DNA from: Eledone cirrhosa | Lineage: Eukaryota | Length of the DNA: 64,000 bases | Assembly (NCBI GenBank): GCA_964016885.1 | Contig: OZ024740.1 | Location: 382,044,001 to 382,108,000 of the forward strand | Reading direction: 5' to 3' | In this document: positions 11,886-61,035 of the stretch, in pieces | Layout of the letters: each line of letters starts with the position of its first letter | How positions within the stretch are numbered: position 1 is the first letter of the stretch | Notes under the pieces: generated by a model | What the model was told of the DNA's origin: nothing | Databases searched by the model: none | The model's input: the letters and a program-made list of their open reading frames with translations, nothing else | Translations under genes and position numbers: made by a program

Positions 11886-11962
11886 ATACCTTCATGCTCA
11901 ACCGTTAATATGCATAAGAAAAGTATATACTTTCAGACGTTCAATCATCTGGCAGGAAGGTA

Positions 11963-12007
11963 TACAGTGCTGACGATAGCTAATAAGCTTGAAACTAGTA
12001 CATCGTA
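11963..12007 (+). ncRNA. Minimal type I hammerhead ribozyme (family A, inverted copy)
   Basis: tacagtg CTGACGA tagct-aata-agctt GAAA ctag TA catcgta. Confidence 0.75.
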
Positions 12008-12267
12008 CCTTTGTCAGTGTTGAACAAAAGGGCAACGATGGTTGCTAAACTCTGTACGGCTTAATTCGGGATATTTGTTTACAAACACACCGAGCATTAT
12101 AATAAATGTTCGGTGAATCCATACGTACATATATATATGTGTGCATGTATGTATATATATACATACTACTGTACGTCTGTATACATATATGTATGTACGT
12201 ATACATACTTATATTTAAGTAACAGCCGTACTAAGAGTGAGAAATGAAATTGCGTTTCATTTTTTCT

Positions 12268-12301
<34 letters not shown>

Positions 12302-14460: not shown

Positions 14461-14560
14461 TAGCGTAGATATACAAATATATATCAATAATATATTTGCA
14501 TACATATATATATATGCGCGCGCGTGTGTTTGTGGGGGGATGTATATATAAAAGTATATA

Positions 14561-15160
14561 AGTATAAATATTTTGTATCTCCAAAGAAATACGGTTTTAG
14601 GAAGCCGTAGCTATGCAAACGACCTCTTGTGATGCATTTCAGGCGTAACTGGCCTTCGGCAGGACGGTCCCTCCCACCGCTTGCGAGTGCTGGACTAGGA
14701 GACAGGCGAGAATATATACTTTTCTCGTCTGTGTAAATGAGGTGATTAATCTCATTTGCATATGAAGCTGTATAAGTTGGCTCAACTTATAATAAAAAGA
14801 AATAGGATTTCGCTTCAAGCATAGCTTTATACAATATGTATAAATATTTCGTATCTCCAAAGAAATACGGTTTTAGGAAGCCGTAGCTATGAAAACACCG
14901 GGGGGCTAACGCCCTCTGGTGATGTCCAGCAGAAGCAAGGGGGACAACCGTCTATGCATTTCAGGTTTAACTGACCTTCGTCAGGACGGTCCCTCCCACC
15001 GCTTGCTTCTGTTGAATATCACCAGAGGGCGTCAGCCCCCCCCCCTCCCCCGGTGTTTGCATAGCTACGGCTTCCTAAAATCGTATTTCTTTGGAGATAC
15101 GAAATATTTATACATATTGTATAAAGCTATGCTTGAAGAGAAATCATATTTCTTTTTTAA
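14561..15160. mobile_element. Non-autonomous HHR element, family E (322-bp HHR spacing; tandem plus inverted arm)
   Basis: GTATAAATATTT(T/C)GTATCTCCAAAGAAATACGG is repeated at 14562 and 14838. 15003-15160 is the reverse complement of about 14795-14938. Two minus-strand HHR motifs. Confidence 0.85.
14947..14990 (-). ncRNA. Intact minimal type I hammerhead ribozyme (family E)
   Basis: Minus strand reads accgtc CTGACGA aggt-cagttaa-acct GAAA tgca TA gacggt. Perfect 6-bp stem I, 4-bp stem II, palindromic ATGCAT stem III, AUA cleavage triplet. Confidence 0.88.
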
Positions 15161-20037: not shown

Positions 20038-20483
20038 ACTAGACCTAAAAAATGCGCAAGCTCAAAAGAGCCACAGAATGTTATAATACACCTTCAAAAG
20101 TGTGGGACTAGAGTTGTTGCTCAAAAATATTGTAATCATTATCTATCGTACACTCTGTGGCATCCTTTATAAAAAGGAGACTCATGACGAACTCAAGGCG
20201 ACACGATAATTATTTAAGTGAATTGATAATATAGAATTCGGCTTAAGTGCATTTCGTATTAAATCATTACTAAACATCTAATATGAGATATTGAACATTA
20301 GCTTAAATAATTATCGTGTCGTCTTGAGTTCGTTATGAGTCTCTTTTTTATAAAAGGATGCCACGGAGTGTACGATAGATAATGATTACAATATTTTTGA
20401 GCAACAACTCTAGTCCCACACTTTTGAAGGTTTATTATAACATTCTGTGGCTCTTTTGAGCTTGCGCATTTTTCAGGTCTAGT
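20038..20483. repeat. Fold-back inverted repeat (about 180-bp arms, about 83-bp spacer)
   Basis: 20038-20218 is the near-perfect reverse complement of 20302-20483. Ends read ACTAG...CTAGT, and the right end abuts (TA)n. Confidence 0.9.
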
Positions 20484-30455: not shown

Positions 30456-30578
30456 GGAGGTGTGTTTTATTGTAGTACGATAAAGCAATGCAGATATCGG
30501 ATAAGAATCACTCTACAGTTTGTAGGACTGGAGTATACATAATATATAAGATCAAAAGATGGTTAAAAGAGTTCCATG

Positions 30579-30649
30579 TATTTTATTATGCGCATTTCAA
30601 AAATAAATATCATCATCCAATAACATTTGTGTTTTCATCAGATAAAATA
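30579..30649 (-). ncRNA. Type I hammerhead ribozyme (family H, mirror copy)
   Basis: Reverse complement of 30743-30813 with the core intact. Confidence 0.82.
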
Positions 30650-30742
30650 GGAAGACATGATATGAAGGTTAAAAACACTTGTGGACGGTGCAGTGATTTA
30701 AAACCATCCACAAGTGTTTTTAACCTTCATATCATGACTTCC

Positions 30743-30813
30743 TATTTTATCTGATGAAAACACAAATGTTATTGCATGATGATATTTGTTTTTGAAATGC
30801 GCATAATAAAATA
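30743..30813 (+). ncRNA. Intact type I hammerhead ribozyme (family H)
   Basis: tattttat CTGATGA [aaacacaaatgttatt-gcat-gatgatatttgttttt] GAAA tgcgca TA ataaaata. 8-bp stem I, long stem II, palindromic ATGCGCAT stem III. Confidence 0.85.
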
Positions 30814-30843
30814 CATGGAACTCTTTTAACCATCTTTTGATCT

Positions 30844-32781: not shown

Positions 32782-32844
32782 AAAGTGAGGTTTTTTTTAC
32801 AAAATGAAAAATAACCGAGGTGTCCTACACGAGTGAAAGTATAA

Positions 32845-33078
32845 AGAAAAAGAGATGAAATCGAAATTGCAACTGGAGTCTTATTTTTTTTTTAAATATA
32901 TATATTTATTTGGTTCCTTTACCGGTTTCGCAGTTCTTCTGCTTTTCAAAAGGTGAGTTAAGATGGCGGGTCTGTGGTTTTTCTCACATCTGTGAGAAAC
33001 CGGTAAAGGAACCAAATAAATATATATATTTAAAAAAAAATAAGACTCCTTTGCATTTTCGATTTCGTCTTTTTTTCT
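32845..33078. repeat. Fold-back inverted repeat (about 85-bp arms)
   Basis: 32845-32929 pairs with 32995-33078. Lies between (TA)n tracts. Confidence 0.8.
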
Positions 33079-33086
33079 ATATATAT

Positions 33087-33482
33087 ATCCGAAATAAATT
33101 AAATTAAATTAAATTAAGGAAGCCATGTCCGAGACAGGCGCCATATTCACCGTAGAATAAACTCAAAGATTCCAATGAATAGATCCGAGCATTTTATATC
33201 AACTAGAAATTGATTGACATATATATATTTAAAGTAACCACATGAAACAATCACAGTGGATAATTTGTAAAGTGTGTATCACACATAGCTAGGTAGGTAA
33301 CTAATTAAAGTTTAACTAGAGCTTTACATATTACCTTTTAAAAAATGATTAATCCTCCTCGTATATATTTCATTAAAGAAATATATTTCACCAATAATCC
33401 GTAAAGTCACAGTAGTCAAATCTTGGATATTCAGCAGGGGGAAGAAATAACTATCTGTGTTTACACATCAAATGCAAATCTG

Positions 33483-33485
<3 letters not shown>
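33087..33485 (-). mobile_element. HHR element family G, degenerate copy
   Basis: Homologous to 48878-49436 in the opposite orientation. The HHR core is mutated (CTGAATA) but stems I and III are retained. TA flanks. Confidence 0.8.
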
Positions 33486-33566
<81 letters not shown>

Positions 33567-34113
33567 CTACGATATATATATACATATATATATCGTAGAG
33601 TGTAATTTCTTCATCATCGACTCTCCAATTTCTTTTCTCTGCTTTCTCTTTACGCCCCCCCCCCCCATATATCTGTGTGTGTGTCTATGTGTTCCTGTTT
33701 TTATATGTGTGTGCGTGAATGTTTGTGTACGTGTGTATGTGTGTGGTTTTATGTGTGTTTATGTGTGTGCATCCGATCAATTGGAGGTTCTCTATATAGA
33801 TTTCAATTGATGACATCTGTGAAAAATCATTTAATTCCATATTTTTTCATCTTTAACTTTATGAAAAATGATTGCCTCTCTTCCTTAGATATCAGTCGTA
33901 TACATGTAGCCTATCAATGCATAAACATTCTTCTCCAATCATTTTTTAAACTTCAAGGTTTTGGGGAATTGCAGGATTTGTTTGTTTTTTTATTTATTTA
34001 GTCAACATTGGCAAAAAATTCTCACATTAAACTGTGGAAATATTTTATTGAATTATCAATTTCTCTGGAAATCTTCGTAATATTTAATAACATTAATATC
34101 TCTTTCTTTATTA

Positions 34114-35560
34114 GCCACTAGGGCTGAAAAATAAAGGACAATACAAAGGAACAGGGACAGTGGCGACTTAGAAGAAACATTTAAAAAAAATAAAAATGGT
34201 AATTAACAATCAATAAATAACTTTAGAATTCCCCAATAAGGGAGAGCATCTCCCTAGGGTAATTTAGGAACCGAAAAGATCCGATACCCGTCCCCCAACA
34301 ATCACCAAGAGCGACCTAATAATGTGTTCCGATCTTCTTTGAATTCACCAATCTACAGGTGCATATGTACTTGGGCTATATTTGCTAGATTTACACAGCT
34401 TTTAACTAATGCATTGGGGTGGAGACAGCAGTTCCCACTCCACCTTCACCCTCCTTTTCAAGTGAAACTTAAAAATATTGATGAGAACTCGGCCAAATAC
34501 GAGAGTGTCTTTCTTTAGTCGTTTCAGTCTTGTCCACCACACGACCTCATTCGTTACAGCCACCAGACAAATGAAAATTGCGCGTCTTTCCCGACCAAAA
34601 CAAGATATTGGGGTTATTTTCACGATGGAGTCGGGTGGTAGCTGGATATTTTCCTAAACGCGACAATTATTGTTCAAGAAATATCTAAAAGTCAGCAATG
34701 CCCGGATACTGTTTGTTTCGAAACGGCAGTGTTCCAGGGTAGCATTGCCAGGAGAAGGGTTTCAGGAAATTATCCATTGGCTCTGAATCAACATCTCCCG
34801 GAACAGACTAGTTAGTTCGTTCTTGTCGATACGTCGAGTCTCCTCGAGAACGTTGTCGCATCTACCCAACACTAATCGACTATAGACCTCTAAGGTGGAA
34901 TTTACATTTAGCGCGTTTTTGGTGGAGGGTTGTGAGAGTCTGACAAAATCCAGATGCCATGCGTTCATTCTCGGTTTACATTTGTCTCTCTACAGCAACT
35001 CAATTCAAGAGACGAGCTGTGGATAGAGGGATAGGGAGCGAATGATCTTTTATCACCTTCCCCTTCGTTGGTATTGTTTGAGTCTTCGTTGTTGTTGATG
35101 GTGGTTTCGCTGCTGCTGCTGCTGCTGCTGCTGCTGTTAATTTAGTTGTAGGAGTCGGTGATGGAGTTATTGGTGCCGTGGTTGTTTGGGAAGTAGACCT
35201 GGCTTCGGTGTGGCTATGATCAATGGAAAGCATTCGATAGGGTCGACCATCAACATCTGGATGTTGTCCTCAAAGCAGCTTCCTTCTGTTTTCGGTGGCC
35301 GAAGTAAATAGTCACGTTTCGGAACATGCAATCTAGTACATTCTTAGAGGAATATGAAGGTTTGTCCGGAGAAAAACTAACTGAACAAGGTTTTTTCGCA
35401 GGTTGTCTCTTTGACTGAGCTGCAGTCCTGGATCAAGAAAGACTGTGACTGGGTGCCTGGCATCTGGAATGTTGTCAGGCGCTCACTAGCCTCAACCAAA
35501 TAGGCAATGCGATCAGTAGAAATTCCACTCTAGAGTTCTATAGAGGATTAAATTACTGGC
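34114..35560 (-). mobile_element. Internally deleted L1/Tx1-like LINE remnant
   Basis: Minus-strand peptide SIVKITPISCFGRERRAIFICLVAV..VVWWTRLK...FKFHLKRRVKVE resembles C-termini of Tx1-like ORF2 (from recall, not searched). A low-complexity ORF1-like stretch lies upstream and a pyrimidine-rich 3' UTR downstream. Confidence 0.5.
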
Positions 35561-38500
35561 CTTGAGCCTTTTTCTCTACTCTAGTATGTTTTGAATTTTT
35601 TTTTATTGTCCATTTTATATATTTGCTAGTGACATCATTTTTTTTCTAGAAGATATTTAAGCATCTTCAAATAACCTTTTTTTTTTTTTTTGGTTAATAG
35701 TCCTTCGAAAGAGAAATTCAAGATTCTCTTTTGGAATTTGATTTGTTAAAACAAATTATATTACTAAATAATATCATCTTTTCTACATCTTTTCACAAAT
35801 ATGGAATCTCCGCCCCCATTGCAACGGGCAGTAACATCAGTAGCAAAAGCAACAACAACTCATACTCGTGCAGGCAATGCTGTTGCGGCCACAATAGACA
35901 GAAATAACAACAACTCCCACGCGTCTACAAAGGCACGAAACTACTGCCCCACCCCCGCAATAAACAAAATCCCACAGAAAGATGAAATACTTATAGCATA
36001 CTACACAGCAATAATGATAACATCAAAGACAATAAACACAACAACAATGACAAAACTATAGAGGAAGAATAAGAATATATCGAAATCAATAGTGTGTGTA
36101 TAAAAGAGGTGACTAGAAAGAGCAGCTTCACCAGCAACAATAGTGGTAACGATATCTAATATATCAACATCATAACCATCACCTCTCCGTGACACGAGAT
36201 ATATCAGAATATTAATGGAAGTAGTTGAAACAATATTATCTACTCTTCAAAACTCCTCAGAGACACGTTTGGAATTGCAAAGGCTGCTGTTACCAATAGA
36301 TATATCAGTTCTCGATCAAATGCGACCCACTGCAGGGAAACAATGGAAGGTGTGGCGAAGTGCAGAATGTCTAGGTGTTACTTTTATGGCAGCATTGAAC
36401 ACCGAAATGCCTTCTCTTTTGAAAACTTCGGGCAGAAACCTTTTTAATTGCTAAGACAACAATATGAACGATAAAAACATGAAAATCAGCAAGAGCATCA
36501 AAATAAAACCAAAATAGTTGCATGAGGTATTACTGATGTAATTACAAAAACAACGATAATAACAGCAGCGATGGTAGAGACAACAACAAATTCTGAATCA
36601 GTACCGCCAGCAACAACCACAGTAACAAATCAGAAATACCTAAAACAATCACAGAAAATACGAAACAAGTCGCTGAAACGCCTCCAAACGCCTCCCTTTT
36701 ACCCTCATCCCCAACAAAATGTAAATATACATAAATATTCAGGTATATTTCACCTCTACTCTGTCACTGAATGGTCGGGCACAGAAACATCAGAGATCGA
36801 CATCCGTGCAGAAGAAAATCAAAATGGCTACCTTAAGCATACAGCTGTTGGCGATAAGGAGAGGCTGTTCAAGCCTCGGGCATTCATGCATGCAAACCCT
36901 TATTAACAATAACAACAACAACAACAAACAAAACAAAAACACCAAAACAACAGCCACATTTGCAACCACACCAACACTAAAATGAATTCACACAGCCACA
37001 ATGTCAACCATATACAAACGAAAAGAAAGAAAACACTCACCAACGACGCATCCATTAAACATGATACGGTCGGATGTACCACCGCAGTGTCACACGGAGA
37101 ATAGGCGATTGATATAAGAAAATGTTGAGAAATTGTTGGGTTCAGGAAGAAATACAAGCCTGATGTAAGAAGGCTTTTAAAAATGCGTACGTAGTCCCAT
37201 AGTTTGTATGAAATTTACGGTAATCCGAAATGAGGATCGTGAAATAGTTTGACTTATACTATAATACAATGCGATTCAGCTACAGTGTTTATGGACCAGA
37301 GGACGTTGATCATGTACCTAGTGCCCCTAGATTATTGACGGATCATATATCTGGTATCTTTAAAGTCTCGACTAGAACCAAAAAAGATTTCGAGGTATTT
37401 TAGAGGAGCCAAATCGAAAGGGGTGACATAGAGTTACTTCAATTGTATTGATTCTACTATTGGATATGCATGCTATCATTATTCCTAGATGTCTTGAACT
37501 AAATTGTAAACTAGTTGCAAGATACTATATGGCATTTTTAACACCGTCCCTGTAATTACATATGTTTTAAACTCTTTTTGTTTTGAATCGTATGTGAGGA
37601 AGTTCGTGTGGACAATTAAAGAAGGAATCATCATCATTAATATTATAAATGTTTTGCTATTTTTATAAGAACAAGGAGAAAAAGTGGTGAAGAGAATAGT
37701 GTGAATGCAGAAGTGTCACAATAAGAGACCAGCTGTGAGTTTACAACAATATTGTTTAAGGCGACGGGCGACATTTGTGATATTTCAAAACACTTATCTC
37801 GAGTTTAGCGTGAGATTCATCCCTTTGCAGTGTTACGTTAATAAGGCACAAGAGAGGATCAAATATATGGATACAAACAAATAAAATGCATACACTCACA
37901 TACATACACAACTATAACATACACAAATAATTACAAATATACATCATTACACTAACAAATACATCCGCAAACAATAATCTGCCTTCGGCGTTATATTTGG
38001 CAAAGAAGTATTAAGAACCAGGGTCGAACTTCTGAGGAGACAAGGTGATCATTTTTTAGACGGAGAACAGAACTACTTCACACTTTTCGCTTAAAACAAA
38101 ACCCTTAGGCAAATTACACGCTGTAGATCATGAGGTTTTTTGTTAGGCTGCAGTTCAGGAATGAATAACATGCAAATGAGGTTTGAAGTTATCATTATTA
38201 TTTTTTTTTTCTTCTTTTAAGAATACTCAGACAGTATAAATACCAAATTTAGTAGTGCTGAAACAAAAGAGACTCCAGTAGCAGCAACAACGCCAGAACA
38301 GAAACGACAAGAAAAACAATAAGAACAAAAATACAAGCAACAGGAACGTAAATAGCATTATATGTAGCAAGCAAGCTGAATTCTAAAGTAGATATCTTCA
38401 AAGACCGTATTATTGATTTATTTTTTGTTGTATTCACTTCAAATATACTTTGGATAACATAGAACTGGATAATATATAAGGTGATATTATTTTGTTTCAG

Positions 38501-39899
38501 TAGCTATCAGTTCATAATAATCCTTCACATGTATATAAACATCAATATTATTGTTTGTCGTAAAAATCGTTAGTGCTGCGTACAAAATACTATAGTGTCA
38601 TATGTTTTGAGTTCAAAATCTAACGGAGTTGGCTTTGATTGTTATCATTCAGACTCGGTAAAATATGTACCAGGCAAGTACTGTGGATGATATAAACTAC
38701 TATATTCTATCAACGGGTCAAATATTAGGATCGATAGTATTGACAATCCGAGGCGTTGTAATATCAGAAAACCATTTTTTCTTTTCTACATTTGCATTAT
38801 ACAAATGCTGTACTCTGGCCTTTAAATTATAAAAATTGTAACAGAGAGGTAGATTTTTTGCTTACGTATTTTAGCTTTTGATTTCAATTCTTCGTGGGAA
38901 TGACTTTGCTTGACAATCAGATTATTATCAATCCTGATAAAATAGCTATCATTTATAATGTGTAGTTGAGTCGGTTGACTCTGTGATGGGTGAAACTTTA
39001 CGCACCAATGTTTTAATGTGTATCGATTAACCCCATGTATCTCCTGAGTTCTAAATTATGATATCTATATATTAACGTCACTTTCCCTACGATAAATACC
39101 ACTAATATGTTGATATCGAATATGACTTACATTGCTACGATGTGCTTCAAAATAAATAAAAGCAAATTATTATTTCATTCCCTTTATCTTACCGGAGCAA
39201 ATATATTAAATGCAAGTGGAACGTTAGAAATATTGAAATGGTTGAATAAATGGTTTAACTATAATTTTGTCTATTGACACCTTGAGTTTTAAATCGTATA
39301 AAATGAAATTAACTATATGCTCACATCGATGTGATTGACTATAACTGTTTCCTATACGTATCTTACTTCAGTGTTCACGAGGGTTGCGATTACTTGCAGC
39401 ATATGGACTTCATTATGTATAAGCACTGAGTTACTTAACCAAACCTTTAGCATGGTCAGACATCTTGTGAGAGAAATTGCACTTCAGTTCAATATTTTAA
39501 ATTTAACTGATGTCTCATTCATATATAAATTCAATATCTACAGCTAGATTGTCACATTCCCTATTAACAAAGATCTCAATACAAATAGGAATTAGATGTC
39601 AGTATTCTAGCATCGTTAAAAAAGGCTACAAGCACACCAGCATTGCTCTCCATAAAACTATGCAAAATATTATATTGCGACCTGAATTCCTTTTCTGATT
39701 TAAGTTCAGTTATATTTAATTATTTATTCCTTACGAAAATCATGAAATCATATACATTATATATGAAATGCGCAGAAAATCATCAGCAAAAGCCTTAGTG
39801 AGTTGATATACCTGTCATTTATTTGTTTATTGAATATGATGTCAAAGTCAGTCTGACTGAGTAAATAATTCTGTAGTTTAAATATTTTTCTTTATTCAG

Positions 39900-39932
39900 T
39901 TTGAAGTTGCTGTTCTCAAAGAGTTAAGTGAT
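39900..39932 (+). CDS. Candidate 33-nt micro-exon (FEVAVLKELSD)
   Basis: Strong acceptor atttttctttattcag|, donor GAT|gtatgt, phase 0-0, open. Confidence 0.3.
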
Positions 39933-42240
39933 GTATGTGATTAATGATTAACCTTGACCCAGTAATTTTCTTCTACTGGAAACAGGACATGAAGTTACCG
40001 CTGCAAATTAACAAATCATTTGAATATTTTATCACTGATTCAAATTTATTTTAAATAGCTTCAATTGTTAAATGCTTATAAAGAAGAGAACATGTCTGAT
40101 AAATGAATCAACTAATTTATGCATTACTGACCAAAATTTGTTGGAGAATATCTCATAAAAGTTTTCTAAATCTCACATATCTAAGTTACCATAACATTTA
40201 GTTGACTACATACTAATAGCTGTAAATAAGAAATGATCTATTTTAAATGTCTATAAATAAGTACATTAATATGGCAGGAGAATACGAACGACAAAAATGT
40301 GTTCTATAGACGGATTGTAAGATAATTTATAGACACCAGCAGAACAAAACCAAAAGTCAAATACCGTTTCGAAATGGCGAATATAAACATTGCCTACTAC
40401 ACAAATCACACCGAAGGATACATACACATTATATATCATATATGTCTGAAAACAATTATAGGAAAAAAGAAAAGCTAAGATTGATGTCTTGTTTTCCAGT
40501 TGTACAATTGCCTTTGGTAAACATACTTCTGAATTATAAGTCGAACATTTCATATTATAGATTATAAGATGAGTAAACAACATTATTTATTTCTGTAACA
40601 GATATATACACAAGATGCCACAAAATAGTTTCAATTAGTTACTTTTCATATAATTCAAGTCTCTCTTAAAAGACTTCAGTTTAACAGTACTTAAAAGTTC
40701 TTTAATAGATATTAAACTTTTGTATAATCATATTACAAACGTAAAAGAATTAACGTATCAAAGATATATTATAGAGTTTAAACATTGACACAAATTATGT
40801 AATAACTGTTATCTCGTATATCATTATCTGTTATATCATCATGTTATTTTATGATATTTTCAGTTGATATTATATGTATGTAATATTGTTTTGTATTTAC
40901 TGTGTGTTATCTGGTTATATTTGTCAAAATGAACAGCGTTATATTTCGCTTGCGTTGATTCGATTTTGATTTTATTTAAACTAAAATTTTATTTGAGAGA
41001 GTGAAAAGCATAACTTAACATCGTTAATATTCTGAATATGTTAGAAATATATATTACAGAGAATTGAAATAATATTCTGGTGGTTAGAATTGACAAATAG
41101 ACTTCAATATCTGGATGCGATAATTTTTCTTCACCTAATGTGTATATGTAAAAAAAAGGCTTAAACCACTTAACCTCCCATTTCTCTGCTAGCCTAAAAT
41201 TTAAGATCTAATTAATTAGTCTCTCTCTATCGCAAACACACACACACACACACACTCTCTCTCTCTCTCTCTCTCTCTCTGCCTGTCCCACTGCTTCTTC
41301 GCTATGTTTCTCTTTATCTCACAGACACACATACACACACACATATATATACACACAAGATGACTCATATAACATTATGTTTCGGTGAACTGAAGATAAA
41401 AACCCATGTTATATCGCTGGTATCCACAATATCACTATTTATTAGTTTTGAAAATTTCATGAATGCTAATTAACATTGATGTTTCTAATTTTGAGAATCA
41501 TTTATAACGCATTTTCTTTCCCTTAACATTAAAACCTAGGAAAGATAGAAATATAAGCTTTTAATTTACTCGAATACAAATAACTATGTAAATAAAGGAA
41601 GCAACAGGTCTCTATGAAGTGTCTAAACATGCAAGAAATCGTGGCCAAATCTTCCTCATGTCATGAAAACAGAAGTGAATGAGAGTACTATATTAATGTA
41701 ATTAACAGTTACACAACAAAGAGCGGTTCGTTTTAGGGGTGTATGTAAAAGCTAGCATATACGGCATCTTTGTATATAATAAACGTAATGTATATACTAT
41801 GTTACAGCCACTATTAATTAATTCTAGCTCGTCGACACCATACCATTCTGACTCTTCATTGAAATTCTAACGTAGATATATATATCACCAACGTGAAAAA
41901 CTCTACGGACTCGATGATGACTCTGCTTCTAGATCGTTAGACATGCGAGAGATGGCATCCAAATATATGTAAAACACTTTTACACTCTTGAAAACATAAC
42001 GTTGTAAATGTATTCTGAGATACATTTCAAGATTTTCATTCACTATATCGAGCATCCCACAATGTGTGAGATAATTCTCCATCAACACGAAACGAAGATG
42101 CACACATTAAAGCTAATAGACTTCACTGGCGCCCCTAATCCCGAAGGGAAACCTATGAAATGTCTACCTCATTTTTCATTCACATAAATTATTGAGCTAT
42201 ATAGCCGACGAAAAATGATTCTATAATTTGTTTTGGAGAT

Positions 42241-42417
42241 AATTGTTTCTACTTTTGGCACAAGGGCAGCAATGAACCAGTGTATTACTGGTACTTTATT
42301 TTATCGACCCCGTAAGGATGAAAGGCAAAGTTAACCTCGGCGGGATTTGAACTCAGATCGTAAAGGGACATAACTACGCTGGAAAGCATCTCTGACCCTC
42401 TACCAATACTGCCAATT
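42241..42417 (-). mobile_element. SINE (octopus-type)
   Basis: Reverse complement of the 16197-16392 family. Confidence 0.8.
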
Positions 42418-43415
42418 GATAATGAATTGAATTTATGACAAGTTCATTTTGATTGAGTGTTGAATATTTGATATGATCTAGATGATTTACGTCATATTTA
42501 TTTTGAATATTGGATACAAATGAATACAAACACTCCTTTTTTTCATTTGAATTGCTGCCAATTTTACTGGGAATTAATACTGAACTTTCAATATTAGAAT
42601 ACAATTTTGCATAACATGTTTACTCTTAGAAAAATCGCTTAGATTAGCATATGAAAGTTCTGAATATAAATATTTACAAATAAAACATGACAGTAATTTA
42701 TGCACGCATTTTCAAAAAAAAAAAATCTTTGAATTCCTTTACTTGTTATCAAAACATACTGACACAGTTCCTTAGTTGAAATGTGGGTTGTCAGAATACC
42801 GTGTCAGTTACTTGAATTTTCATGATGTGAAGTATCTAGCAATAGGTTCAGTAGTCTAGTGAAATATGGACACACTTCAGTATTAGATAATTTGTTCAGC
42901 GAACTTGTTTTTATAACTGGAATTACTCGTTAGAATATAAATTGGTAATCATTTATTTATGATCGGTTAATTAAAATTTGATCATGATAAATATTGAATC
43001 TATTGATCAGAGTGTAGTATCGTACAAAATATCATTTTTATTTTTCATTAACACGTATCAATGGCCTAGGTATATCTAAAGAGACTCTTCGAACTTGAGG
43101 CCTTTTAAACAAATTTTAACTCATTACAATCCTTGTGCGATAATAGTGTGGAAGTTCATTTTTAGTATTGGTACATTTTATATGATCACATGATATTGGA
43201 AATAAGTTCTGGAATCTTCATCAATTTATTTGACCAACTGTTAACAGATTTGAACTCTTTGCTCAATCTTCTGTGTTGTGTCGGGGGCTACAGGCATCTA
43301 GGGTGTCTAAAATGACATGACACCTTAACAGTTTTCTAGCACTGTAAGATATCGTGGAATTTCAGCGTTTTCAATTAACAATTAACAACCCAATACACAC
43401 ACACACACACACACA

Positions 43416-43486
<71 letters not shown>

Positions 43487-43537
43487 GAGGTTGTTTTTCG
43501 TTATTTCGTGGGCCGAAATACGATTCCCGATAATTTG

Positions 43538-43577
<40 letters not shown>

Positions 43578-44531
43578 GAGAGAGAGAGAAAAGGGTGGAG
43601 TTGGAAATAGCACGGAAAATATATTTTACCTTTTTTTTCCTCTCTTTGATTCGTCAAAGTGACATTATTGAAAAAATGAGAGGGATAATTTTTTTTTAAA
43701 GTTTTATAATGTATATAAAGTATATATGTTTTGCCGGTTTCGATGTATTCTTAAAATTCAACTTATCAAATGTCGTATTACAATTCAAATGAATTAATAA
43801 GAATTAAAAACTAAAAGTTAAAGATTTAAAATTAAGAGGTAAGTATTTTTTCCATCTTCTTTGCTGAGAAGGAGATCCGGTCTTAAATGGATCAAAAGAC
43901 CGCTAGAAAGAGCAGTCGATAATCATTCAACTTAAGATGCTCAACTTACATAAAGAAATGAATTAGGAGTCAAAATATCAAATTAAAAAAGAAACGGAGT
44001 TAAAAACTCGAGTTTTTTAAGAAAACACGTGGATATGTTCAGATAGATGAGAACCGAACTCACCGAAGCTGGAAACTAAAGGAACTACAACTTATGCTCA
44101 GTGCATGGAGTTCAGCTAATGTCTCTTTCGTAAGCAAGCTAATTAAGGAGGCCCTGTAAAGCTGTGGCTTTCTGAGAACGTTGGCACAGATACAGCGGAA
44201 AAAAGAATGTTATGCTACACATAGATCAGTGAAGACATTGAAAAATAAAATAAAACACTGGAATGCAGCAAATGCAAACTAAAGAACCATCAGACGTACC
44301 ACAATAAGAAGAGAAACGCAAATAAACAGGCAGGAGATGCATAGTGGATAAATCCTAAGGCGAAGAAAACTAGAACTAAGAAAAAAAGACCCCGCGAAAA
44401 GGGTGGCCCAGGTACTCTATAAAGTCTACAAACTAAGGTTTTGCACAGCCCAGACTACACGTAATTTGCGCCCTTTTGATGGTGCGAAAATTTAATACAT
44501 TTTTGACCAGAGTAAACACAAGGTTAAGAAC

Positions 44532-44614
<83 letters not shown>

Positions 44615-45005
44615 ATTTTACGATTCATACACACACTATTTCGTATGCTAACAATGGTTTCATGAATTAACAAACCTTACAGGACAGCTAACTATGTATG
44701 TAGTCACAGGTTCAGATGGAGGTGCAAATAAAGCAAAATGTGATTGCGGGATGTAGATTAAAGTGTGATTGGAGAAGAAAATGAAATATGTTTCAATATC
44801 GAACACAAAACATTTTAATTTTCTCATATCAGAACTCGAAATTATTCAATTTAGAACCACTTCATGTCTCATGTAAAATTAACACTTTCAATATTTCTCC
44901 ATATCCTACCAACTAATTAAAAACATTGGAAAAGGTAAAAATAAAATTTCTTTATCAATATTTTTTTATTCAACAACCCAACTGTTTTGCTTGTTTCTGT
45001 TGCAG

Positions 45006-45068
45006 AAGAAAGAAAAAAGATATAAAAATAGGATGAATCTAACCCGCACACTCTATTCTCAGAAAGCG
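45006..45068 (+). CDS. Candidate 63-nt exon (KKEKRYKNRMNLTRTLYSQKA)
   Basis: Strong acceptor ttttgcttgtttctgttgcag|, donor GCG|gtatta, phase 0-0, open. Confidence 0.35.
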
Positions 45069-46973
45069 GTATTAGCATTCTATGTTCGCTGATATCAGGA
45101 AAACTGATAACTTTTCTTTATCTATGAAATATGTAAGTGTAAATGGTTATGCAGTGGAATGATATATACAATTCAGCGAATTTCTTGGAGCAAGAGCTAA
45201 ATATTTTATCAACATTATTCTTCCAAAAATCAAAATCAGAGCTGTCACTGTAAGTGTATGTTTATCTTGTATGTATGTATGTATGTAATGTATGTGTGCG
45301 TATCTCTGTTGTATAGGTAGTCAGACATCAGCTAAGCTGTATGAATGTGATTTATTCTGATTGTCAAGCATATACAGAAGAGGGTTATCCTATAAATGGC
45401 TCAACTATACAAAACACAAAGGTCCAACATTGTTGCTGACATGGCAAACTCAAGCTAATTCGAATTATTACCATGATTAAATTTGACTCGAACATGTTCA
45501 CACGGGGAGAAAATCGGTGCTATGCTGACTGCACTACTGCCTGATTCTAATCGAACAGCGTCATTTGCCAAATTTGACAACTATAATAGGGATGTTTAAA
45601 TTGATCAACAAATGTTCATTACAGCATTTTTGAATGATTGCACCTTACTACTTCCTTATACTTTCTATCTTGTGCACAGTGATTTTAAAACATTCACATA
45701 TCACACATCATCTCACTTAGATGCAACTTACAACATTTCTACTTGGCCATTGATTTATGTTCTATGAGGCATTATGGTCTTTTTACTCGTTTTGCTATTG
45801 CACTCCGACTACCTGGAATATGAGAAAATAGTATGACATTTTTTGCGAAATTATCAATATTTGTAAGAAAGATTGTCATATAAACACAATGCCATTGAGT
45901 ATTGCAAATTTGAAAGTGGACGGGTCTAAGTAGTTAGAAAAGTACTTTACCAATAATTATTATGTCAAATGCAATGGTCAGCCCATATCTTTATAATGAT
46001 AGGTACGTTGCTCTTTCATATTCCGAAATTGGTTGACTGATGTTCCGCAGGATATAATTTCATGATTCTATGTTCATATATTAGCCGCTATTGGAAGCCA
46101 TGTGTTTTCTAGTAATTCACATTTAATCTAATTGTTCTGTTTTGTTGCAGAGCTGAGCTACATTAGAGGCCATAGGATCAGCCAGATGTGATTTCAAAAA
46201 TATTTCTAATGGGGAATTAACTAAATTGTAACGAATAAATACATGAATTGAAAAGGGAAATAGTTATTTTACTCAACTAAATTTCAGAAGAAAATTCTTC
46301 CATATGCACATTATCTAGAGTAGTGAGATACACCTCACACACATGGTATTCATATAAATGTTTCATTCATCAGATCTTTCACAGAATGACAGCAAACATT
46401 TGAAAGCTGATTGTTATATAAGATTAGGGAAGATATTTATTATTATCAAGATCTATAAGGAAAAGAAAATTACTTCATATAAATACCGCATAATTAGCAG
46501 CTTCAGCGAAAGGAAACTCAACAATATTGTTGATAAATTAATTAACTGAATAGTTATATTAGCGATATTACGCCTACGCGCTTTCTCTTGCTTGCTAAAC
46601 ACAAATGTAACACAATTAGGGGTCGATAATGTTAAGGGGACAGAATTTTATCAGTAAAGATGCCAGACAAAAATGTTGGTTACACAATATTAATGGGGTA
46701 TTTGGGTTTTCAAAATAGCCCGTTCGTCTCCAATTTCCAGTTGTCACACGTTCGTCGCAGTAATTCTACTTGCATGATTGTAGGCTGATATATGCGAAAA
46801 TAGGTGTATTTCTATGCCTGTATCATTACATGTATGTGTGTGTGCACGCAAGTTGTTCGCTTCCATAAGTATATAGACACACATATATAATGTATATGTA
46901 TATATCGGATTGCAGTATAAGGAACATGTACGTTAATTGCATATATTTCTGTTTCTATCTCAGTGTATGTGTA

Positions 46974-47045
<72 letters not shown>

Positions 47046-47308
47046 GTTCTAAAAGTAATAAATATATCCTATCTCGATCCAAATATATATTTGTGGGAAA
47101 ATCATATATAACATAGCCATCGCCTTAATCCATTGCTATATAGTATCTTTAATAGTCTCGTTCTTTCCCTTTTCTTTCATCTTCAAGACAATCATTACCA
47201 TCGTCTTATTCAACACTAATGTTTTCTTTAATACTTTGGACGTCAAATTAAGTATAAGCATAGTGTATGCACATTTAAATATAAAGATACACACAGATGC
47301 ACATATTA

Positions 47309-47363
<55 letters not shown>

Positions 47364-48687
47364 TCTATAATGTAGCAATCTTCAACGCAGGAAATAAAGC
47401 AATCACAGTCGACCGCTATAAATAATACATTAGAAAATCGGTTAAAATACACATATAAACCAAATAAATGGCCAGCAATCCAAGACCGTATCTCTCAAAC
47501 TCCGGTTGAAAGCTCTGACCATTGAGCTAAGGAACGTCTGGCAGACACGTCCGTCTAAATTAGATAGATATATTGAAGAGCCATGTATGTAACAACTTTC
47601 CATAGAAAATATCGAAGGCATAAGCCACTTCATTCTTTCCGCTTCTATGAATAATTTACCCACTTTACTCAGCACTTATCTATAGAGATCGACTGTTATT
47701 AGAGACGAGCGAATTACTGAACTGAATGCTTATAAAAGTGTGGAATCTACTAAAACACCTATACCCTTGACCAAAGGTTCTCAACCCATTTGGGCCAAAC
47801 GCCCCCTTTTGCCTCTCGAAATCATGACCACCCCCCTTACCCTATTTTTCCATTTATCAATATACTACTGATTTTGATTCAGTAGATTACTGGGCCAAAT
47901 CAAGTTATCTTAAAATCTTTAAAAAATACTCGCATGAATTAAATGCAAAGGTTTCAGTCCAAAACAAAAGCAAGTTATTTCAAATTATATATTTAAAAAA
48001 AAAAAAAGATTTGATCTCAGTCGAAAATCTTTTTTTTTTTTAATTCTATATTTCACTGTTAGCTGTTGTAATATTCTACAATTAAAACTGTAGAGTCAAA
48101 ATACAAAAGATGCAAAATATGAAGAATTTCTCACCTTTCTCTGAAATCACAAACTCAGGGGAAAAATAGTACCTTGCAAAATAATATACCTCGTAGCAAA
48201 ATAAACTACTTAGTAGCAACGAATGAATTGAGAAGCTTGGTGACAGTGAGAAAGCCATATCTATATCCCTTATATATATGGTGGCTGCCAACTCGTTTTC
48301 GAGTACGGCCACTACTTTATATCCATGTAGGAGAACCCCTACCGATGCGCTGAACGAGTGTGACTTTTTAGTCCCGCCAGCGACTTGAAAACTCTGGTAC
48401 AAACACTACACTTGTGACAATTATTGACACATAGTGCTGGGCCCATGGTACCATGTGACGACAAGTGCAGAGAGATCTCCAGATATAAAGCAATGCCTGT
48501 GCCCGGAAGCTTTTATAGTGAGCAAAGGCACTGCACAAAGCCAGTCCCACTCTCTTAACCAAGATGATATTTACCAAAAAGAAGAACAAGTCAACATCAT
48601 TGGATACCATCAGGGTTGCAGGTGTTATATCAGAGTTTTCCTTCTCCTGTTATATATATACATAGATAGATACACACACACACATAA

Positions 48688-48736
<49 letters not shown>

Positions 48737-48877
48737 TGTGTGTGTGTGCCTTGGTTTTGGTACAGAAAGAATTTGTCTCCAGTTTTTATTGCCAGGTCAA
48801 AGGGCACGGCTCTTTCAACAACGCCATATATATATAAGTGTGTGTGTGTGTGTATGTGTATTATATATATATATATA

Positions 48878-49434
48878 TATCCGAAATAGATTTAATTAAA
48901 TTAAATTAAAGGAGTCAGGTCCGAGACATGGATATGGCTCATGTCTCGGACATCATTCCTTTAATTTAATTTAGTTAAATCTATTTCGGATATATAAACG
49001 ATTCCTTATCTGTAGAGCTAAATCGGTTGAAAGGACTTGGCTGCTATTTATAACTGTTGACCACCCTATTCACGCCAATGGGAGGATGCTAGCATGTTGT
49101 TAGTAGTTTTAGAATTGCAGCACGTTCGACGGGTCTCTCGCAGATGTGTATTTGATGCGTAAACACAGACAGTTATTTCTTCCTCCTTGCTGATGATCTA
49201 ACATTCAAATGCTGTGATTTTACGGATGTTTAGTGAAATATATTTCTTTAATGAAATATATACAAGGAGGATTAATCATTTGTTAAAAGGTAATATTTGA
49301 AGATCTAGTTAAACTTTAATTAGTTACCCACCTAGCTGTGTGTGTTTACACACTTTACAAATTATCCCCTGTGATTGTTTCATGTGTTTATTTTAAATAT
49401 ATATATATATATGTCAATCAATCTCTAGATGATG

Positions 49435-49436
<2 letters not shown>
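48878..49436 (+). mobile_element. HHR element family G with 5' fold-back arm
   Basis: Hairpin 48876-48995 followed by a unit containing an intact HHR. TA/CA flanks. Confidence 0.85.
49181..49271 (+). ncRNA. Full-size type I hammerhead ribozyme (family G)
   Basis: tcctccttg CTGATGA [tctaacatt...gatgtttagt] GAAA tatatttc-tttaat-gaaatata TA caaggagga. Perfect 9-bp stem I, 8-bp stem III, AUA cleavage triplet. Confidence 0.85.
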
Positions 49437-49520
<84 letters not shown>

Positions 49521-51109
49521 TATATATATACACACACATATATATATATACATACATACATTTACGTATGTATATAGCTAGCAATTATAGATTTGTACAT
49601 ATACGTGCATTTATCTTTAAGTGTGTAAGGATGTTGACATGATTATTTATGAGTTTTTTGGGGGTACGGAGAAAATTCTGTCTCCAGATTTTATTGCCTA
49701 GGGGGATTAAGATTAAATACCTCAGCTCTGGCTGAAACCAGGTTCTCAACCTAATCAAACACTAATGCAGGCCTGTGTGTGTATATATGTGTGTGTGTGT
49801 GTGTATATGTTTGTGTGTATATGTATGTACGTATGTACGTATGCATGTGTGTGTATCACCATTGCTTCTTTTTGTTGTCATTTCTGTTGAAGCTGTTCTT
49901 GTAACTGTTCTTAAAGTTGACGTCCTTATGTTCATTTTCTTTGATTTCTTTTGTTTTTCTTTTATCTCCCTAGGGAATTCGTTGACAAGCTTCTTTTATT
50001 TGTATTCTTCATTCAAATGCATTCACACTGGCTGTCTAAGAGACGTACAAATATGACTTATAAAACTTACCAAACTAAAGGGGCTTCCAGCGCCCCCCTC
50101 AAAGCTTCAAACATCACCCTGGAGGGCCGAAACGCCCCCGCGGGGTGGGGGTGGGGTGCTCCCCGTTGAGAACCTTTGCACTAGACGGTCCTGTTAAACT
50201 TAGAGACAGATTGAATTTACCACGCAAGAATTAGTACGGTTTCTTCGACAGACTTCCATAAACTTCCAGTTTCACCGAGGTTGGCCGAGGTTCCGAGCCG
50301 TGGAATAATATCTATCTGACACCATGTAGTTGCGAAGGAAAAGTTTTAACCATGTAGTGCTGAGGTCAATGCTGCAATATATGTTAATATGTTTCAGGTT
50401 CATTTATTAGAAACTGTGCAAGACTGGAGGAAACGCACATGCGGAACCACTTTGAAATGTATCATTAAATAATCTATTTACAGTTTGGTGGACTGCAGTA
50501 AGTGAATCCTTTCCTCCAAGCAAAGACTCTATTTCTTAATGCACTGAAACTATATATTTTGCCAAACCGTTGAACAATTTATAGTTGATTACGGCATTGT
50601 TTTCTACAACCTTGATCTTCGTTACTGCTTAACTATTTTTACTGAAATATTTCTTTCTCAAGTTATACATCTGCCATTCTTAACTTGGCATTTCCTTGCC
50701 AGAAGTTTGCCTATTTCACCAATTTAAAGCATTTGTTCTTCGTCACATGAACATATTCCTCTGTCTGTTAGAATGATTTACGTTTAAACTTTTGACATCT
50801 CTGTGTGACTATTTAATGTATATACGTTGCATTATTGATATAAATTGTTGCAGGTTTATACAATATCTTGTTTAAAGAAAATTACGTACCATTTCTGGGC
50901 TCCAAATTGAATATACGTCAACCATTTTGATATTTGGTTTTGGAGGTTTGGTGTGTTTCTTGTAAACATGTGGTACATATTCCTCTTGATTTCACTTCGT
51001 TAAGTCTATGGTGTGGTCAGAATTAGTGTCGGCTAAAGAAACACTCATACACATTATATATCTCTATATATCTAAATATAAATATATATGGGTGTGTATG
51101 TATCTGTGT

Positions 51110-58860: not shown

Positions 58861-61035
58861 ATGGAACAACAGCAACCACCATAATAACAATAATAGCAAC
58901 ACACACAACTATGACGATAGATATAATTACAAACCCTTAGAGAAACTATTCTTCAATCCAGCTGACAAAACATATAAGATTGGTAATATCTATCCTACGA
59001 GGTTACCCTTTAATAAAAGGGTTTGTATACCACAACAGATAGATGACGAGACAGAGGCACAGTTCACCATAGCTAGAAATAAGATTAGACAAATAGTAGA
59101 CCGGTATACTAAGAAACAGAGCAAACCAGAGGTCCAAAACTTGGGAGGGAACCTGTAGAAGGCTTGGTTAGCCTCAAGCAGCGCACAAGGGATGGTGAGA
59201 TAGTATGTCTACGACGGATAAGTCTGGTAGGATGTCAATAGACAGCATGCGGAACTACATCAAGGCTATGCAAACCCACATCACCAACACGAGCGAAATT
59301 GCACAGCAAATACATGATGAGAGAGAGAAAATATCCTCAACGTTCACATGATGATGTGGACCGACATCCTAAAGCCAAGCAGACGCATTGCCAACAACTT
59401 CCAGGCATCTAACAATGGCATACCACCCTTGTATGGGCTCCGCAAAGACCATAAGACAGTCGACGACCCGACAACAGGACCACCAACAAGACCTGTATGC
59501 GGAGCAAATATAGCTAGCAACTACAGGATCTCCTACTTCCTCTCAATGGAATCAAGAGGTCCCCAGATGTATGTGACAGTACAGAGGACCTCCTCAGCAG
59601 AATCAGTGAGTGCAACAAAAACAAAAACCTATCCAACTGCATAATAGGCAGTATGGATGTGGTATCACTGTACCCATCCATTAACATTGATTTTGCTGTG
59701 GAAAAATGTGTGGAGATGATCAATGAGAGTGAGGTGGAGTTCTGCGACGTCGACACGGACGAACTGGGCCTCCTACTTAGGCTTACCTATGACACTGACT
59801 ACCTAGACAGCCATGACCATAGACGTTTCTGCCCCAGTAGACCCATAAGAGGTAGACTCCCCCCCCCATAACCTCAATGGCAAAAAAGACTCCCATGGGA
59901 AGGTGGATTGGGTGGACCAAAGTTATACGGACCCCCGAAACAATGATCAGGTAAGAAAAATGGTCGCACATGCAATAGGGGCTAGTATCAAAACTACCCT
60001 AAAGGGCCACATATTCAAATTCAACGAGAAGATCTACACCCAAAATGAGGGAGCAGCCATTGGCGTCAGTATAGCTGGTGACGTTGCCAAACTTTTTATG
60101 GTATGGTGGGAAAGGAGACTTAAAGATCTCCTTGATGAGAGCCCCATAGACCTCATCATGTACTCTCGTTACGTAGACGACATCAATATAGTAATAACGA
60201 CATCCCCACAAGAGAGTACTAACAAGTTTGATTTAGAAGATAGCACAATGGAAAGCATCCAGCAGATAGCTAATTCCATACAACAGATTATAACTGTAAC
60301 TATCGACTACCCTTCCAAACCCCCTAAACATAGACTACCTTTATTAGATACGGAAATCTGGATTAACACTATAGAGTATACGAAGGAGCTACGGAGAAGT
60401 AAAAGACCCTCATAGAACTGGACATGAAAGGAATTTGCCCATTATACAGGAGCAAATCATGGAATAGCTTAGATAGGACTAGACATAAGATAGGGAAAGC
60501 CACCTCATGATACGACAACCAGAGATACCAGAGTGTCATGTTTGTGGACGCTACCCCTGGAGGAAAATTAGCTAACCAGTGTAGAAAGGCCGTGAGAAAG
60601 ACCCACTTAAAGATTAAGGTGGTAGAAAAGCCATGAACCAGATTAGCATCCCTGATTAGCAAAACCTACCCTTTTAAGAAAACCCACTGTACTAATAGGA
60701 AATGTATTATATGTAAAGTAAACCCCCGGATAAACTGTAAAACTAGAAACGTAGTCTATAGCATAAGATGTACAGAGGGTACTTGCAGAAACATGACAAC
60801 AACATACATAGGCGAGACAGCTCGTAGCATAGGTGAAAGGATAGACCAACACTGGGGGGAACTAAAAGGACGAAAACACGGGTCAGTACTATACGAGCAT
60901 GCCAGACAACAACACGATGGTAATATAGACAACATAGAAATTAGAATAATATCTTTACATAGAAATGACCCAGCAGATAGGCAAATCAGAGAGGCCAGCG
61001 AAATAGAACTTAGAACGCCAAGGCTCAACAGATAA
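58861..61035 (+). pseudogene. Penelope-like RT / GIY-YIG ORF, multiply frameshifted
   Basis: PPLYGLRKDHK, GPPTRPVCGA, GSMDVVSLYPSI, QNEGAAIG, YSRYVDDI, LPLLDTEIW, VMFVDATPGG, CTNRKCIIC, RNVVYSIRC, YIGETARSIGERIDQH and RQIREA. Confidence 0.9.

What the first reader, a model, noticed from the sequence alone, without database searches (positions are those of the whole stretch)
33087..49436. Two copies of family G are circular permutations of each other
Seen: at 33087-33485 the segment order is Z (CCGAAATA...CCGAGACA), W, X (TTGATTGACA...CTGCGA). Read in the same sense, the 48.9-49.4-kb copy has X, Y, Z. Together they close a ring Z-W-X-Y of roughly 550 nt containing one HHR. Inference: independent insertions from a circular or concatemeric template with different start points.
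Basis: partly seen in the sequence, partly recalled or inferred. Interest (0 to 1): 0.72.

Follow-up and report, generated by a model that had tools for sequence, protein, structure and literature searches.

The report
Ribozyme ring with two entry points
The two copies are permuted pieces of one 551-base protein-free repeat with a hammerhead ribozyme motif (a retrozyme, a known kind of jumping element); its copies start at two fixed points on the ring and sit back to back, likely because a borrowed Penelope transposon enzyme copied a probably circular RNA from both sides of a DNA break.

Summary
The permutation is real. Both copies map on one closed 551-nt non-coding unit with one type I hammerhead motif whose core pair 3-8 covaries (C-G 99, U-A 47, G-C 7). 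Start points are not spread round the ring: 222 of 287 arms in pattern-sampled loci end 3' at two sites 113 nt apart, each at a TATA-like stretch before the same GCUC...GAGCU hairpin motif; only the 5' truncations scatter. Insertions are often two head-to-head arms, one ending at each site (60 of 61 classifiable pairs): the Penelope 'tail at one end' footprint, also seen in two autonomous Penelope-like families here. No coding interior turned up. So it is a new family of a known kind, a Penelope-mobilised non-LTR retrozyme; this scan has noted other such families in this genome. A closed circle is the likeliest template (about 0.55) but no RNA was seen. One extra locus holds two whole units inserted, cut site to cut site, at the predicted ribozyme cut of an RT-encoding Penelope-like element, suggesting that ribozyme-cut RNAs were joined before copying (one locus, not confirmed in independent reads).

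The parts
33082..33485 (-). Single-arm copy, ring r142 to r551 (X, W, Z in element sense); 5'-truncated, 3' end at site E2 running into (TA)n
   Evidence: 95% to family majority
33428..33434 (-). Hammerhead core of the 33-kb copy, CUGAAUA, G8 lost: predicted inactive
33353..33371 (-). Helix III 3' strand, predicted cleavage site (between 33362 and 33361) and helix I 3' strand
33160..33203 (-). Internal site E1 (r438) and the hairpin motif after it (mutated in this copy); the stretch from here to 33082 is the 113-nt 'tail'
33486..33590 (.). (TA)n-rich flank at the 5' end of the 33-kb copy
48874..48930 (-). Short inverted arm, r495 to r551, ending at E2 in (TA)n
   Evidence: 95% over 57 nt
48929..49436 (+). 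Long arm, r484 through the Z|Y junction to r438 (E1); head-to-head with the short arm, 2-nt overlap
   Evidence: 92% over 508 nt
48987..49019 (+). Z|Y junction = internal site E2 (TATATA) and the second hairpin motif (5' side mutated in this copy)
49181..49271 (+). Type I hammerhead motif: helix I 49181-49189 with 49263-49271, core CUGAUGA 49190-49196, GAAA 49235-49238, 9-bp helix III, predicted cleavage 49262|49263
49437..49560 (.). (TA)n/(CA)n microsatellite flank beyond E1

Best explanation
This is a non-coding 551-nt hammerhead-bearing repeat (non-LTR retrozyme) that is likely mobilised in trans by a Penelope-like RT/GIY-YIG enzyme, which would prime at two fixed internal sites of a probably circular RNA from the two sides of a cut in (TA)n DNA. 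Shown in sequence: closed unit, no ORF interior, conserved and covarying hammerhead, two fixed 3' ends 113 nt apart, each followed 4-6 nt later by a GCUC...GAGCU motif, (TA)n flanks, head-to-head arms with one end of each class, scattered 5' ends, arms longer than one unit. Inferred steps: (1) more-than-unit copies are transcribed and cut by the hammerhead into unit RNAs with 5'-OH and cyclic-phosphate ends; (2) a host ligase joins the ends, mostly into circles and sometimes to other cut RNAs; (3) a dimeric Penelope-type protein binds the two motifs, nicks both strands of (TA)n DNA and starts cDNA at E1 and at E2, perhaps helped by pairing of target TA with the UAUA at each site; (4) each cDNA runs through the ligated cut site and stops at a random point; (5) the two cDNAs are joined 5' to 5' by short microhomology. 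This regenerates copies with two ribozymes, which internal priming on a linear copy would lose each generation.
For: Two fixed 3' ends: 113 + 109 of 287 arms; in the earlier 149-locus set 95 of 100 E1 and 94 of 99 E2 ends run into (TA)3 or more. Head-to-head pairs: 60 mixed, 1 E2/E2, 0 E1/E1; 44 further pairs had one or both ends unclassified. Same rule in subfamily D (73% to A), in sister ring H (557 nt, about 50% to A; 16 mixed, 0 unmixed) and in two RT-encoding PLE families (5 of 5 and 6 of 6 classifiable pairs). Published PLE footprint: tail at only one end and inverted 5'-truncated copy (PMC8557442, PMC3846280 passages); two internal RT start sites define the tail, both strands are cut and extended, protein predicted dimeric (PMC11167929). 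Hammerhead: 3-8 pair C-G 99, U-A 47, G-C 7 of 168 readable cores among 205 extracted; 94.6% of cells paired, 9 pairs with two-sided change, slid controls 37-49%. Continuity across the cut site: in loci sampled downstream of it, 40 arms reach it and 2 stop within 4 nt; gap openings at most 0.5% in about 365 crossing arms, ring median 0.3%. One template per insertion: variants private to a locus are shared between tandem repeats 11 times (0.66 expected) and between arms 16 times (1.1 expected); in three-way comparisons the sister arm sides with neither unit (37 vs 40, 45 sister-odd) and the differences are nearly all single-copy. No homogeneous donor array: no same-strand neighbours at unit spacing among 100 of 101 listed Y hits; 3 of 287 arms exceed two units. 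Locus L354: two 546-nt units lie cut site to cut site inside PLE family K at K's predicted hammerhead cut.
Against: No RNA of the element was observed, so neither cleavage nor a circle is shown directly. In vitro, the anole PLE protein uses uncleaved RNA and its hammerhead is dispensable (PMC11167929), so read-through of tandem copies can give the same permutations. In L354 the two units already differed in the template (sister arm sides with unit 2 at 11 sites, unit 1 at 1), which is not one circle read twice. In L303 (family H) units two apart share four rare variants, pointing to later DNA-level duplication. Split by which arm is long, three-way counts are uneven (3' copy odd 31, 5' copy odd 13 for long E1 arms). 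Shared private variants could come from local gene conversion. The published anole start sites are not homologous to the cut DNA, unlike the TA match here. No autonomous partner with ring-like sequence was found. 15 of 38 H cores read UCGAUAA (U4C), a predicted defect. Arrays may be collapsed in the assembly.
Confidence: 0.6

Rival explanations
1. Same element and enzyme, but the template is a linear concatemer: read-through of a genomic multi-unit copy with uncut ribozymes, or monomers ligated to each other.
For: Uncleaved RNA is the main substrate for the anole PLE in vitro (PMC11167929). L354 shows two different units in one template. Arms of 2 to 3.5 units exist (6 listed).
Against: Internal priming drops everything 3' of the start site, so linear donors shrink by a unit per generation, yet several subfamilies down to 70% identity keep the same unit (inference). 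No homogeneous array seen. Units within an insertion behave as identical at insertion in the other 14 testable loci taken together.
Confidence: 0.22
2. The template is the cut linear monomer, and the RT jumps from its 5' end to the 3' end of the same or another monomer, so no covalent circle is needed.
For: A genome-wide pattern for two wrong letters right after the cut site gave 14 hits, including five 2-nt replacements, two short duplications and three loci that leave the ring.
Against: The same kind of event follows 0.44% of exact 20-mers elsewhere on the ring (298 of 67297). With a rough 1500-2500 copies of the 20-mer, 14 hits are between background and a few-fold excess, so an excess is not established. 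About 99% of crossing arms are seamless. Both arms of L354 carry the same seamless junction and the same unit variants.
Confidence: 0.13
3. The unit is the pLTR of an autonomous PLE (linear master with a coding interior), and the copies are its truncated ends; or it is a satellite spread by DNA recombination.
For: Retrozymes are related to pLTRs of PLEs (preprint 10.64898/2026.07.22.740005). The sample is a few hundred of thousands of copies.
Against: No 5' flank is shared at a fixed ring position among 436 flanks of 207 loci. Of the 54 longer flanking ORFs scanned (of 209 found), those with RT, GIY-YIG or transposase hits belong to neighbouring elements. Every ring position is read through. 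Fixed 3' ends with head-to-head arms in dispersed (TA)n sites do not fit satellite recombination.
Confidence: 0.05

Closest known systems
Metazoan non-LTR retrozymes (Cervera and de la Pena 2020, PMC7229834; Li, Clavereau and Pollet 2026, bioRxiv 10.64898/2026.07.22.740005)
   Same: Non-coding head-to-tail unit with one type I hammerhead, low GC, no LTR/PBS/PPT, PLEs proposed as the mobilising partner, circle proposed as template.
   Different: Unit of 551 nt is above the 170-400 nt of the 2020 paper but within the 51-972 bp of the preprint; copies are mostly under two units and two-armed rather than long arrays; 9-bp helix III and a long loop II; RNA not observed here; the parts of those papers that I read do not describe fixed 3' ends or the one-end tail for retrozymes.
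EN+ Penelope-like elements: pLTR, inverted 5'-truncated copy and tail (PMC8557442, PMC3846280); PAc of the green anole (PMC11167929)
   Same: Partial tandems, head-to-head inverted arm, tail at one end only, two internal start sites downstream of the hammerhead, AT-rich or (TA)n targets.
   Different: No ORF; tail 113 nt (81-133 in relatives) against 30-40 bp; both start sites match the TA target, whereas PAc starts at a non-homologous AC-rich site; each site is followed by the same hairpin motif.
PLE hammerhead variants (Cervera and de la Pena 2014, PMC4209133)
   Same: [quoted passage not shown]
   Different: A third core state, G3-C8, occurs in one subfamily, and a 10-bp pairing between the 5' flank and loop II is conserved.
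U6/LINE-1 chimeras made by RtcB ligation (Moldovan et al. 2019, PMC6789731)
   Same: Precedent for joining a cyclic-phosphate end to a 5'-OH retroelement RNA before retrotransposition, as inferred for locus L354.
   Different: Here both partners are ribozyme-cut retroelement RNAs and the insert is joined at both ends; no biochemical test.

Membership tests
non-LTR retrozyme | Short head-to-tail repeat unit without coding capacity | tested here: met
   551-nt unit closes on itself; no coding interior in 207 loci
non-LTR retrozyme | One type I hammerhead per unit | tested here: met
   descriptor scan, core covariation, pair counts; no Rfam hit at gathering threshold
non-LTR retrozyme | Copies with two complete ribozymes in tandem | tested here: met
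   13 of 199 end-classified arms in pattern-sampled loci cross the cut site twice; neither window copy does
non-LTR retrozyme | No LTR, PBS or PPT architecture | tested here: inconclusive
   no LTR-bounded interior seen; PBS and PPT were not searched for
non-LTR retrozyme | Self-cleavage of the RNA | not testable with these tools
   indirect only: L354 junctions at the predicted site
non-LTR retrozyme | Expressed as linear and circular monomer RNA | not testable with these tools
   no RNA holder listed
EN+ Penelope-like element (autonomous) | ORF with RT and GIY-YIG domains | tested here: not met
   the unit is non-coding
PLE-mobilised element | Inverted 5'-truncated arm, head to head | tested here: met
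   105 head-to-head pairs in 165 loci; 1 tail-to-tail pair in 129 loci
PLE-mobilised element | Tail at one end only (two RT start sites) | tested here: met
   60 of 61 classifiable pairs mixed
PLE-mobilised element | AT-rich or (TA)n target | tested here: met
   189 of 199 classified ends run into (TA)n
PLE-mobilised element | Sequence kinship with the pLTR of an autonomous partner | tested here: inconclusive
   no similarity to the two autonomous families examined; other PLE families not examined
PLE-mobilised element | Target-site duplication | tested here: inconclusive
   both flanks are (TA)n, so a duplication cannot be read

The most novel reading that the evidence does not exclude
Ribozyme-cut retrozyme RNAs and ribozyme-cut RNAs of autonomous Penelope-like elements enter one ligatable pool in the germline, forming homo- and hetero-oligomeric circles, and a dimeric PLE enzyme reads them from two duplicated GCUC...GAGCU initiation modules, one per DNA strand. 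Locus L354 would be a fossil of such a hetero-ligated RNA and would name a Neptune/Nematis-type PLE as the enzyme able to copy the ring; the module would be the first defined signal for the PLE tail.
Probability: 0.35. Interest if true: 0.7.

Novelty: new member of a known kind. Interest (0 to 1): 0.45.

Why it matters
How Penelope-like elements regenerate more-than-unit copies, what their ribozymes do in vivo, and what makes the 'tail' are open questions in the papers read. This family gives three testable handles: a strict one-site-per-arm rule that fits a dimeric enzyme priming both strands; a short RNA motif repeated behind both start sites and kept across rings only about 50% alike; and one chimeric insertion whose junctions fall on two predicted ribozyme cut sites. 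The class itself is known, and the scan has reported several such families in this genome, which limits the surprise.

Tried and rejected
Rfam scan of the window: no hit. RNA evidence: no RNA holder listed; this says nothing about expression. The three listed runs are contigs of one sample; they cover the family but no listed piece bridges the L354 junctions, so the chimera is neither confirmed nor contradicted. Pile-up of 5' ends at the cut site: 9 of 448 arms within 3 nt, 5.7 expected: rejected. Scars at the cut site as proof of template jumping: not clearly above background. Same-strand discontinuities (22) do not cluster at the cut site. More copies of the ring-K chimera: 4 pattern hits, 2 are L354 and 2 are chance matches. 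The apparent 5' pile-up at r229 came from mapping diverged subfamilies on one majority sequence and shrank with subfamily rings. 26 arms end at the internal TA tract r400-422; 6 resume within 260 nt, and the other 20 may be a minor third start site or later insertions. Autonomous partner by sequence: the 4.7-kb PLE of L291 and family K show no ring similarity. The 40-nt foreign piece after the cut site in L404 has no meaningful Rfam match. The circular majority sequences fold more stably than mononucleotide shuffles (z -3 to -5), a weak control not used as evidence. A direct genome-wide count of tandem dimers was not obtained.
Full report
Observation. The two window copies share X (88% over 258 nt) and Z, in the orders stated. 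Searches of the window's genome (3.0 Gb, unnamed) returned many relatives, and a majority sequence of 60 loci closed on itself at 551 nt. On that ring the 33-kb copy is one arm, r142 to r551, and the 48.9-kb copy is a long arm, r484 round to r438, joined head to head to a 57-nt arm, r495 to r551. Exact-match counts are 697, 1429 and 101 for three motifs, with 0 for reversed controls, so the family has on the order of a thousand or more copies.

Sampling. I fetched 320 ring loci, 253 distinct. To avoid choosing loci by their ends, the main counts use 165 loci found by short internal patterns, taken largely in coordinate order from the first chromosome; this is a part of the hits, not all. Arms were mapped to subfamily rings A (551 nt), F (535), D (567, 73% to A) and M (546), and to sister ring H (557, about 50% to A).

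Ends. Of 287 arms of at least 60 nt, 113 end 3' at r438 (E1, within 8 nt), 109 at r551 (E2, -30 to +6) and 65 elsewhere; the two windows cover about 10% of the ring. In the 149-locus set, 189 of 199 such ends run into (TA)n. 5' ends occupy every tenth of the ring (18-42 arms each; not uniform, p = 0.003, partly through the sampling patterns). Of 105 head-to-head pairs, 60 have one E1 and one E2 end, 1 has two E2, none two E1, and 44 have an unclassified end. Most junctions between arms lie between a 7-nt overlap and a 4-nt gap. Ring H gives 16 mixed pairs and no unmixed pair. Two RT-encoding PLE families of the genome behave alike: a young 4734-nt family with RT and GIY-YIG domains (tail 41 nt, 5 of 5 pairs) and family K (tail about 45 nt; the sister arm is E1 in 6 of 6 pairs, the query having selected E2). 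[quoted passage not shown]

Start-site motif. In all five rings each of the two ends lies in a TATA-like stretch followed within 1-6 nt by GCUC (or GCUU, GCCC), a loop of 10-22 nt and GAGCU; the motif occurs nowhere else on the rings, apart from one overlapping match in H. In family A arms these 16 positions differ from the majority in 63 of 1865 cells (3.4%), against 5.0% for all sites and 7.5% for G/C sites. A role as protein-binding signal is inferred, by analogy with the binding region 3' of the start sites in PAc. Neither autonomous family examined carries the motif by sequence.

Ribozyme. The unit holds one type I hammerhead motif: core at r194, GAAA at r239, 9-bp helix III, cut predicted after r266. 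Positions 3 and 8 read C-G in 99, U-A in 47 and G-C in 7 of 168 readable cores, 15 being mismatched; 37 of 205 extracted copies gave no readable core. On 42 hand-picked copies 94.6% of cells pair, 9 pairs change on both sides, and slid structures pair 37-49%; relatedness inflates the shuffle control. A 10-bp pairing of the 5' flank with loop II is kept (90% paired); it may be a pseudoknot or a blocking fold. The U3-A8 variant and the extra base after position 9 are known from PLE ribozymes (PMC4209133, parts 1-2 of 4). E1 and E2 lie 172 and 285 nt 3' of the cut.

No coding master. Among 436 flanks of 207 loci no 5' flank recurs at a fixed ring position; shared 3' flanks are other repeats next to the (TA)n target. 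Of 54 longer ORFs scanned (209 found), the RT, GIY-YIG and transposase hits lie in neighbouring elements. 103 arms read through the Z|Y junction.

Circle or concatemer. Arms pass the cut site: 40 reach it and 2 stop there in loci sampled downstream of it, with gap openings at or below the ring average. 74 of 287 arms exceed one unit and 3 exceed two; the longest, in ring H, is 3.5 units. Repeats within one insertion share locus-private variants far above expectation (11 vs 0.66; 16 vs 1.1), and in 14 loci where one position occurs three times the sister arm sides with neither unit overall (37 vs 40), the differences being almost all single-copy. This is what one sequence read more than once predicts. 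It is also compatible with young homogeneous donor arrays, though none was seen among 100 of 101 Y hits or the best matches to a two-unit query. Against a pure circle model: uneven counts for long E1 arms (31 vs 13), DNA-level duplication in L303, and in vitro use of uncleaved RNA by PAc. An earlier scan note prompted a test for template-jump scars: 14 loci have two wrong letters just after the cut, but such events follow 0.44% of exact 20-mers elsewhere and the denominator is only estimated, so the test is inconclusive.

Chimera. Locus L354 (G000:C1, about 61.778 Mb) is a two-armed insertion of family K, an RT-encoding PLE 42% identical to the 784-aa protein of the young family. Its long arm reads K sequence, two whole 546-nt ring units from cut site to cut site, then the directly following K sequence; the short arm repeats the second junction. 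Both junctions are placed to within a shared TA. K's break lies at the NUH after the only hammerhead core found in 7.9 kb of K (U3-A8, 4-bp helix II, 5-bp helix III, helix I only 2 bp; one other candidate cut 19 nt further on), and one K copy (L373) begins at that site. The units differ at 20 of 546 sites and the short arm follows unit 2 at 11 sites and unit 1 at 1, so two different units were in the template. A single departure from the ring at the cut site is expected by chance; both ends there, and at K's site, is not (rough estimate 1e-5 per event; inference). The simplest reading is ligation of ribozyme-cut RNAs, as RtcB does for U6/L1 (PMC6789731, abstract and opening). It is one locus, found once genome-wide, and unconfirmed in independent data.

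Comparison. The element meets the testable features of metazoan non-LTR retrozymes (PMC7229834: abstract, first third of the Results, Discussion; preprint 10.64898/2026.07.22.740005: parts 1-3 of 5) and of PLE-mobilised sequences; cleavage and circular RNA could not be tested. Circles as templates for more-than-unit PLE copies were proposed in 2014. Five literature searches (listings, plus the papers named) showed no report of a duplicated start-site motif or of a retrozyme-PLE chimera joined at both ribozyme sites; subscription papers and supplements, including the preprint's tables, were not seen and may bear on this. PMC8857657 and bioRxiv 10.1101/2025.02.02.635956 were seen as abstracts only. 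'Neptune/Nematis-type' rests on the CxxC linker before GIY-YIG described in PMC8557442, not on a tree. The scan has reported at least seven other retrozyme families with this footprint in the same genome and U6 joined at PLE ribozyme cuts in other genomes; these are unchecked notes.

Verdict. Real feature; new family of a known kind. Non-autonomous, PLE-mobilised retrozyme: about 0.93. Template mainly a closed circle about 0.55-0.6, linear concatemer about 0.22, jumps on cut monomers about 0.13. Interest 0.45, carried by the start-site motif and the chimera.

Noticed in passing
L354 (G000:C1:61778020-61779800): Two-armed insertion of PLE family K with two whole ring units placed cut site to cut site at K's predicted hammerhead cut.
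   Followed up: yes
L301-L330, e.g. L303 (G000:C3:345936050-345938600): Sister ring family H, 557 nt, 95-99% to its majority, U3-A8 hammerhead with long loops II and III read by eye, tail 81 nt, arms up to 3.5 units; in L303 units two apart share rare variants.
   Followed up: partly
L291 (G000:C5:17087000-17096900): Very young autonomous PLE, 4734-nt unit, with a 455-aa open frame ahead of a 784-aa RT/GIY-YIG frame; many intact copies; 41-nt tail at one end; my descriptor found no hammerhead in it. A tandem run of five or more copies lies at C2:359.52 Mb.
   Followed up: partly
L404:1521-1560: Ring arm that stops at the predicted cut site and continues into about 40 nt of unidentified sequence and then (TA)n.
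   Followed up: partly
L405:1520-1523: Ring sequence jumps from the cut site to r88, making a partial tandem duplication.
   Followed up: no
ring r168-179 with r207-216 (window 49164-49175 region with loop II): Conserved 10-bp pairing between the hammerhead's 5' flank and loop II: pseudoknot or ribozyme-blocking fold.
   Followed up: partly
L218, L232, L238, L248, L253, L255, L259: Subfamily with a G3-C8 hammerhead core and a longer helix III loop.
   Followed up: partly
window 32840-33080: A separate 93-bp inverted repeat with a 55-nt spacer abuts the 3' (TA)n of the 33-kb copy; probably another two-armed insertion.
   Followed up: no
window 11302-12270, 14558-15157, 20039-20482, 30549-30843: Other head-to-head inverted repeats, several with hammerhead-like motifs (11970, 11879, 11451, 14984, 15291, 28287, 30751).
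   Followed up: no
window 21067-21954 and 60233-61032: Fragments of PLE ORFs with GIY-YIG similarity, from two families other than the young one.
   Followed up: no
L008, L012, L081, L087, L149, L158, L213, L243, L244, L247: About 10 of 207 ring loci sit beside the same repeat family; in three of them the neighbour encodes an RT followed by a PHD finger.
   Followed up: no
runs X1-X3 on window 49227-49381: Summed contig depth over the 3' half of the hammerhead and X is about 30 times that over Y and Z, suggesting many more subfamilies share that part.
   Followed up: partly
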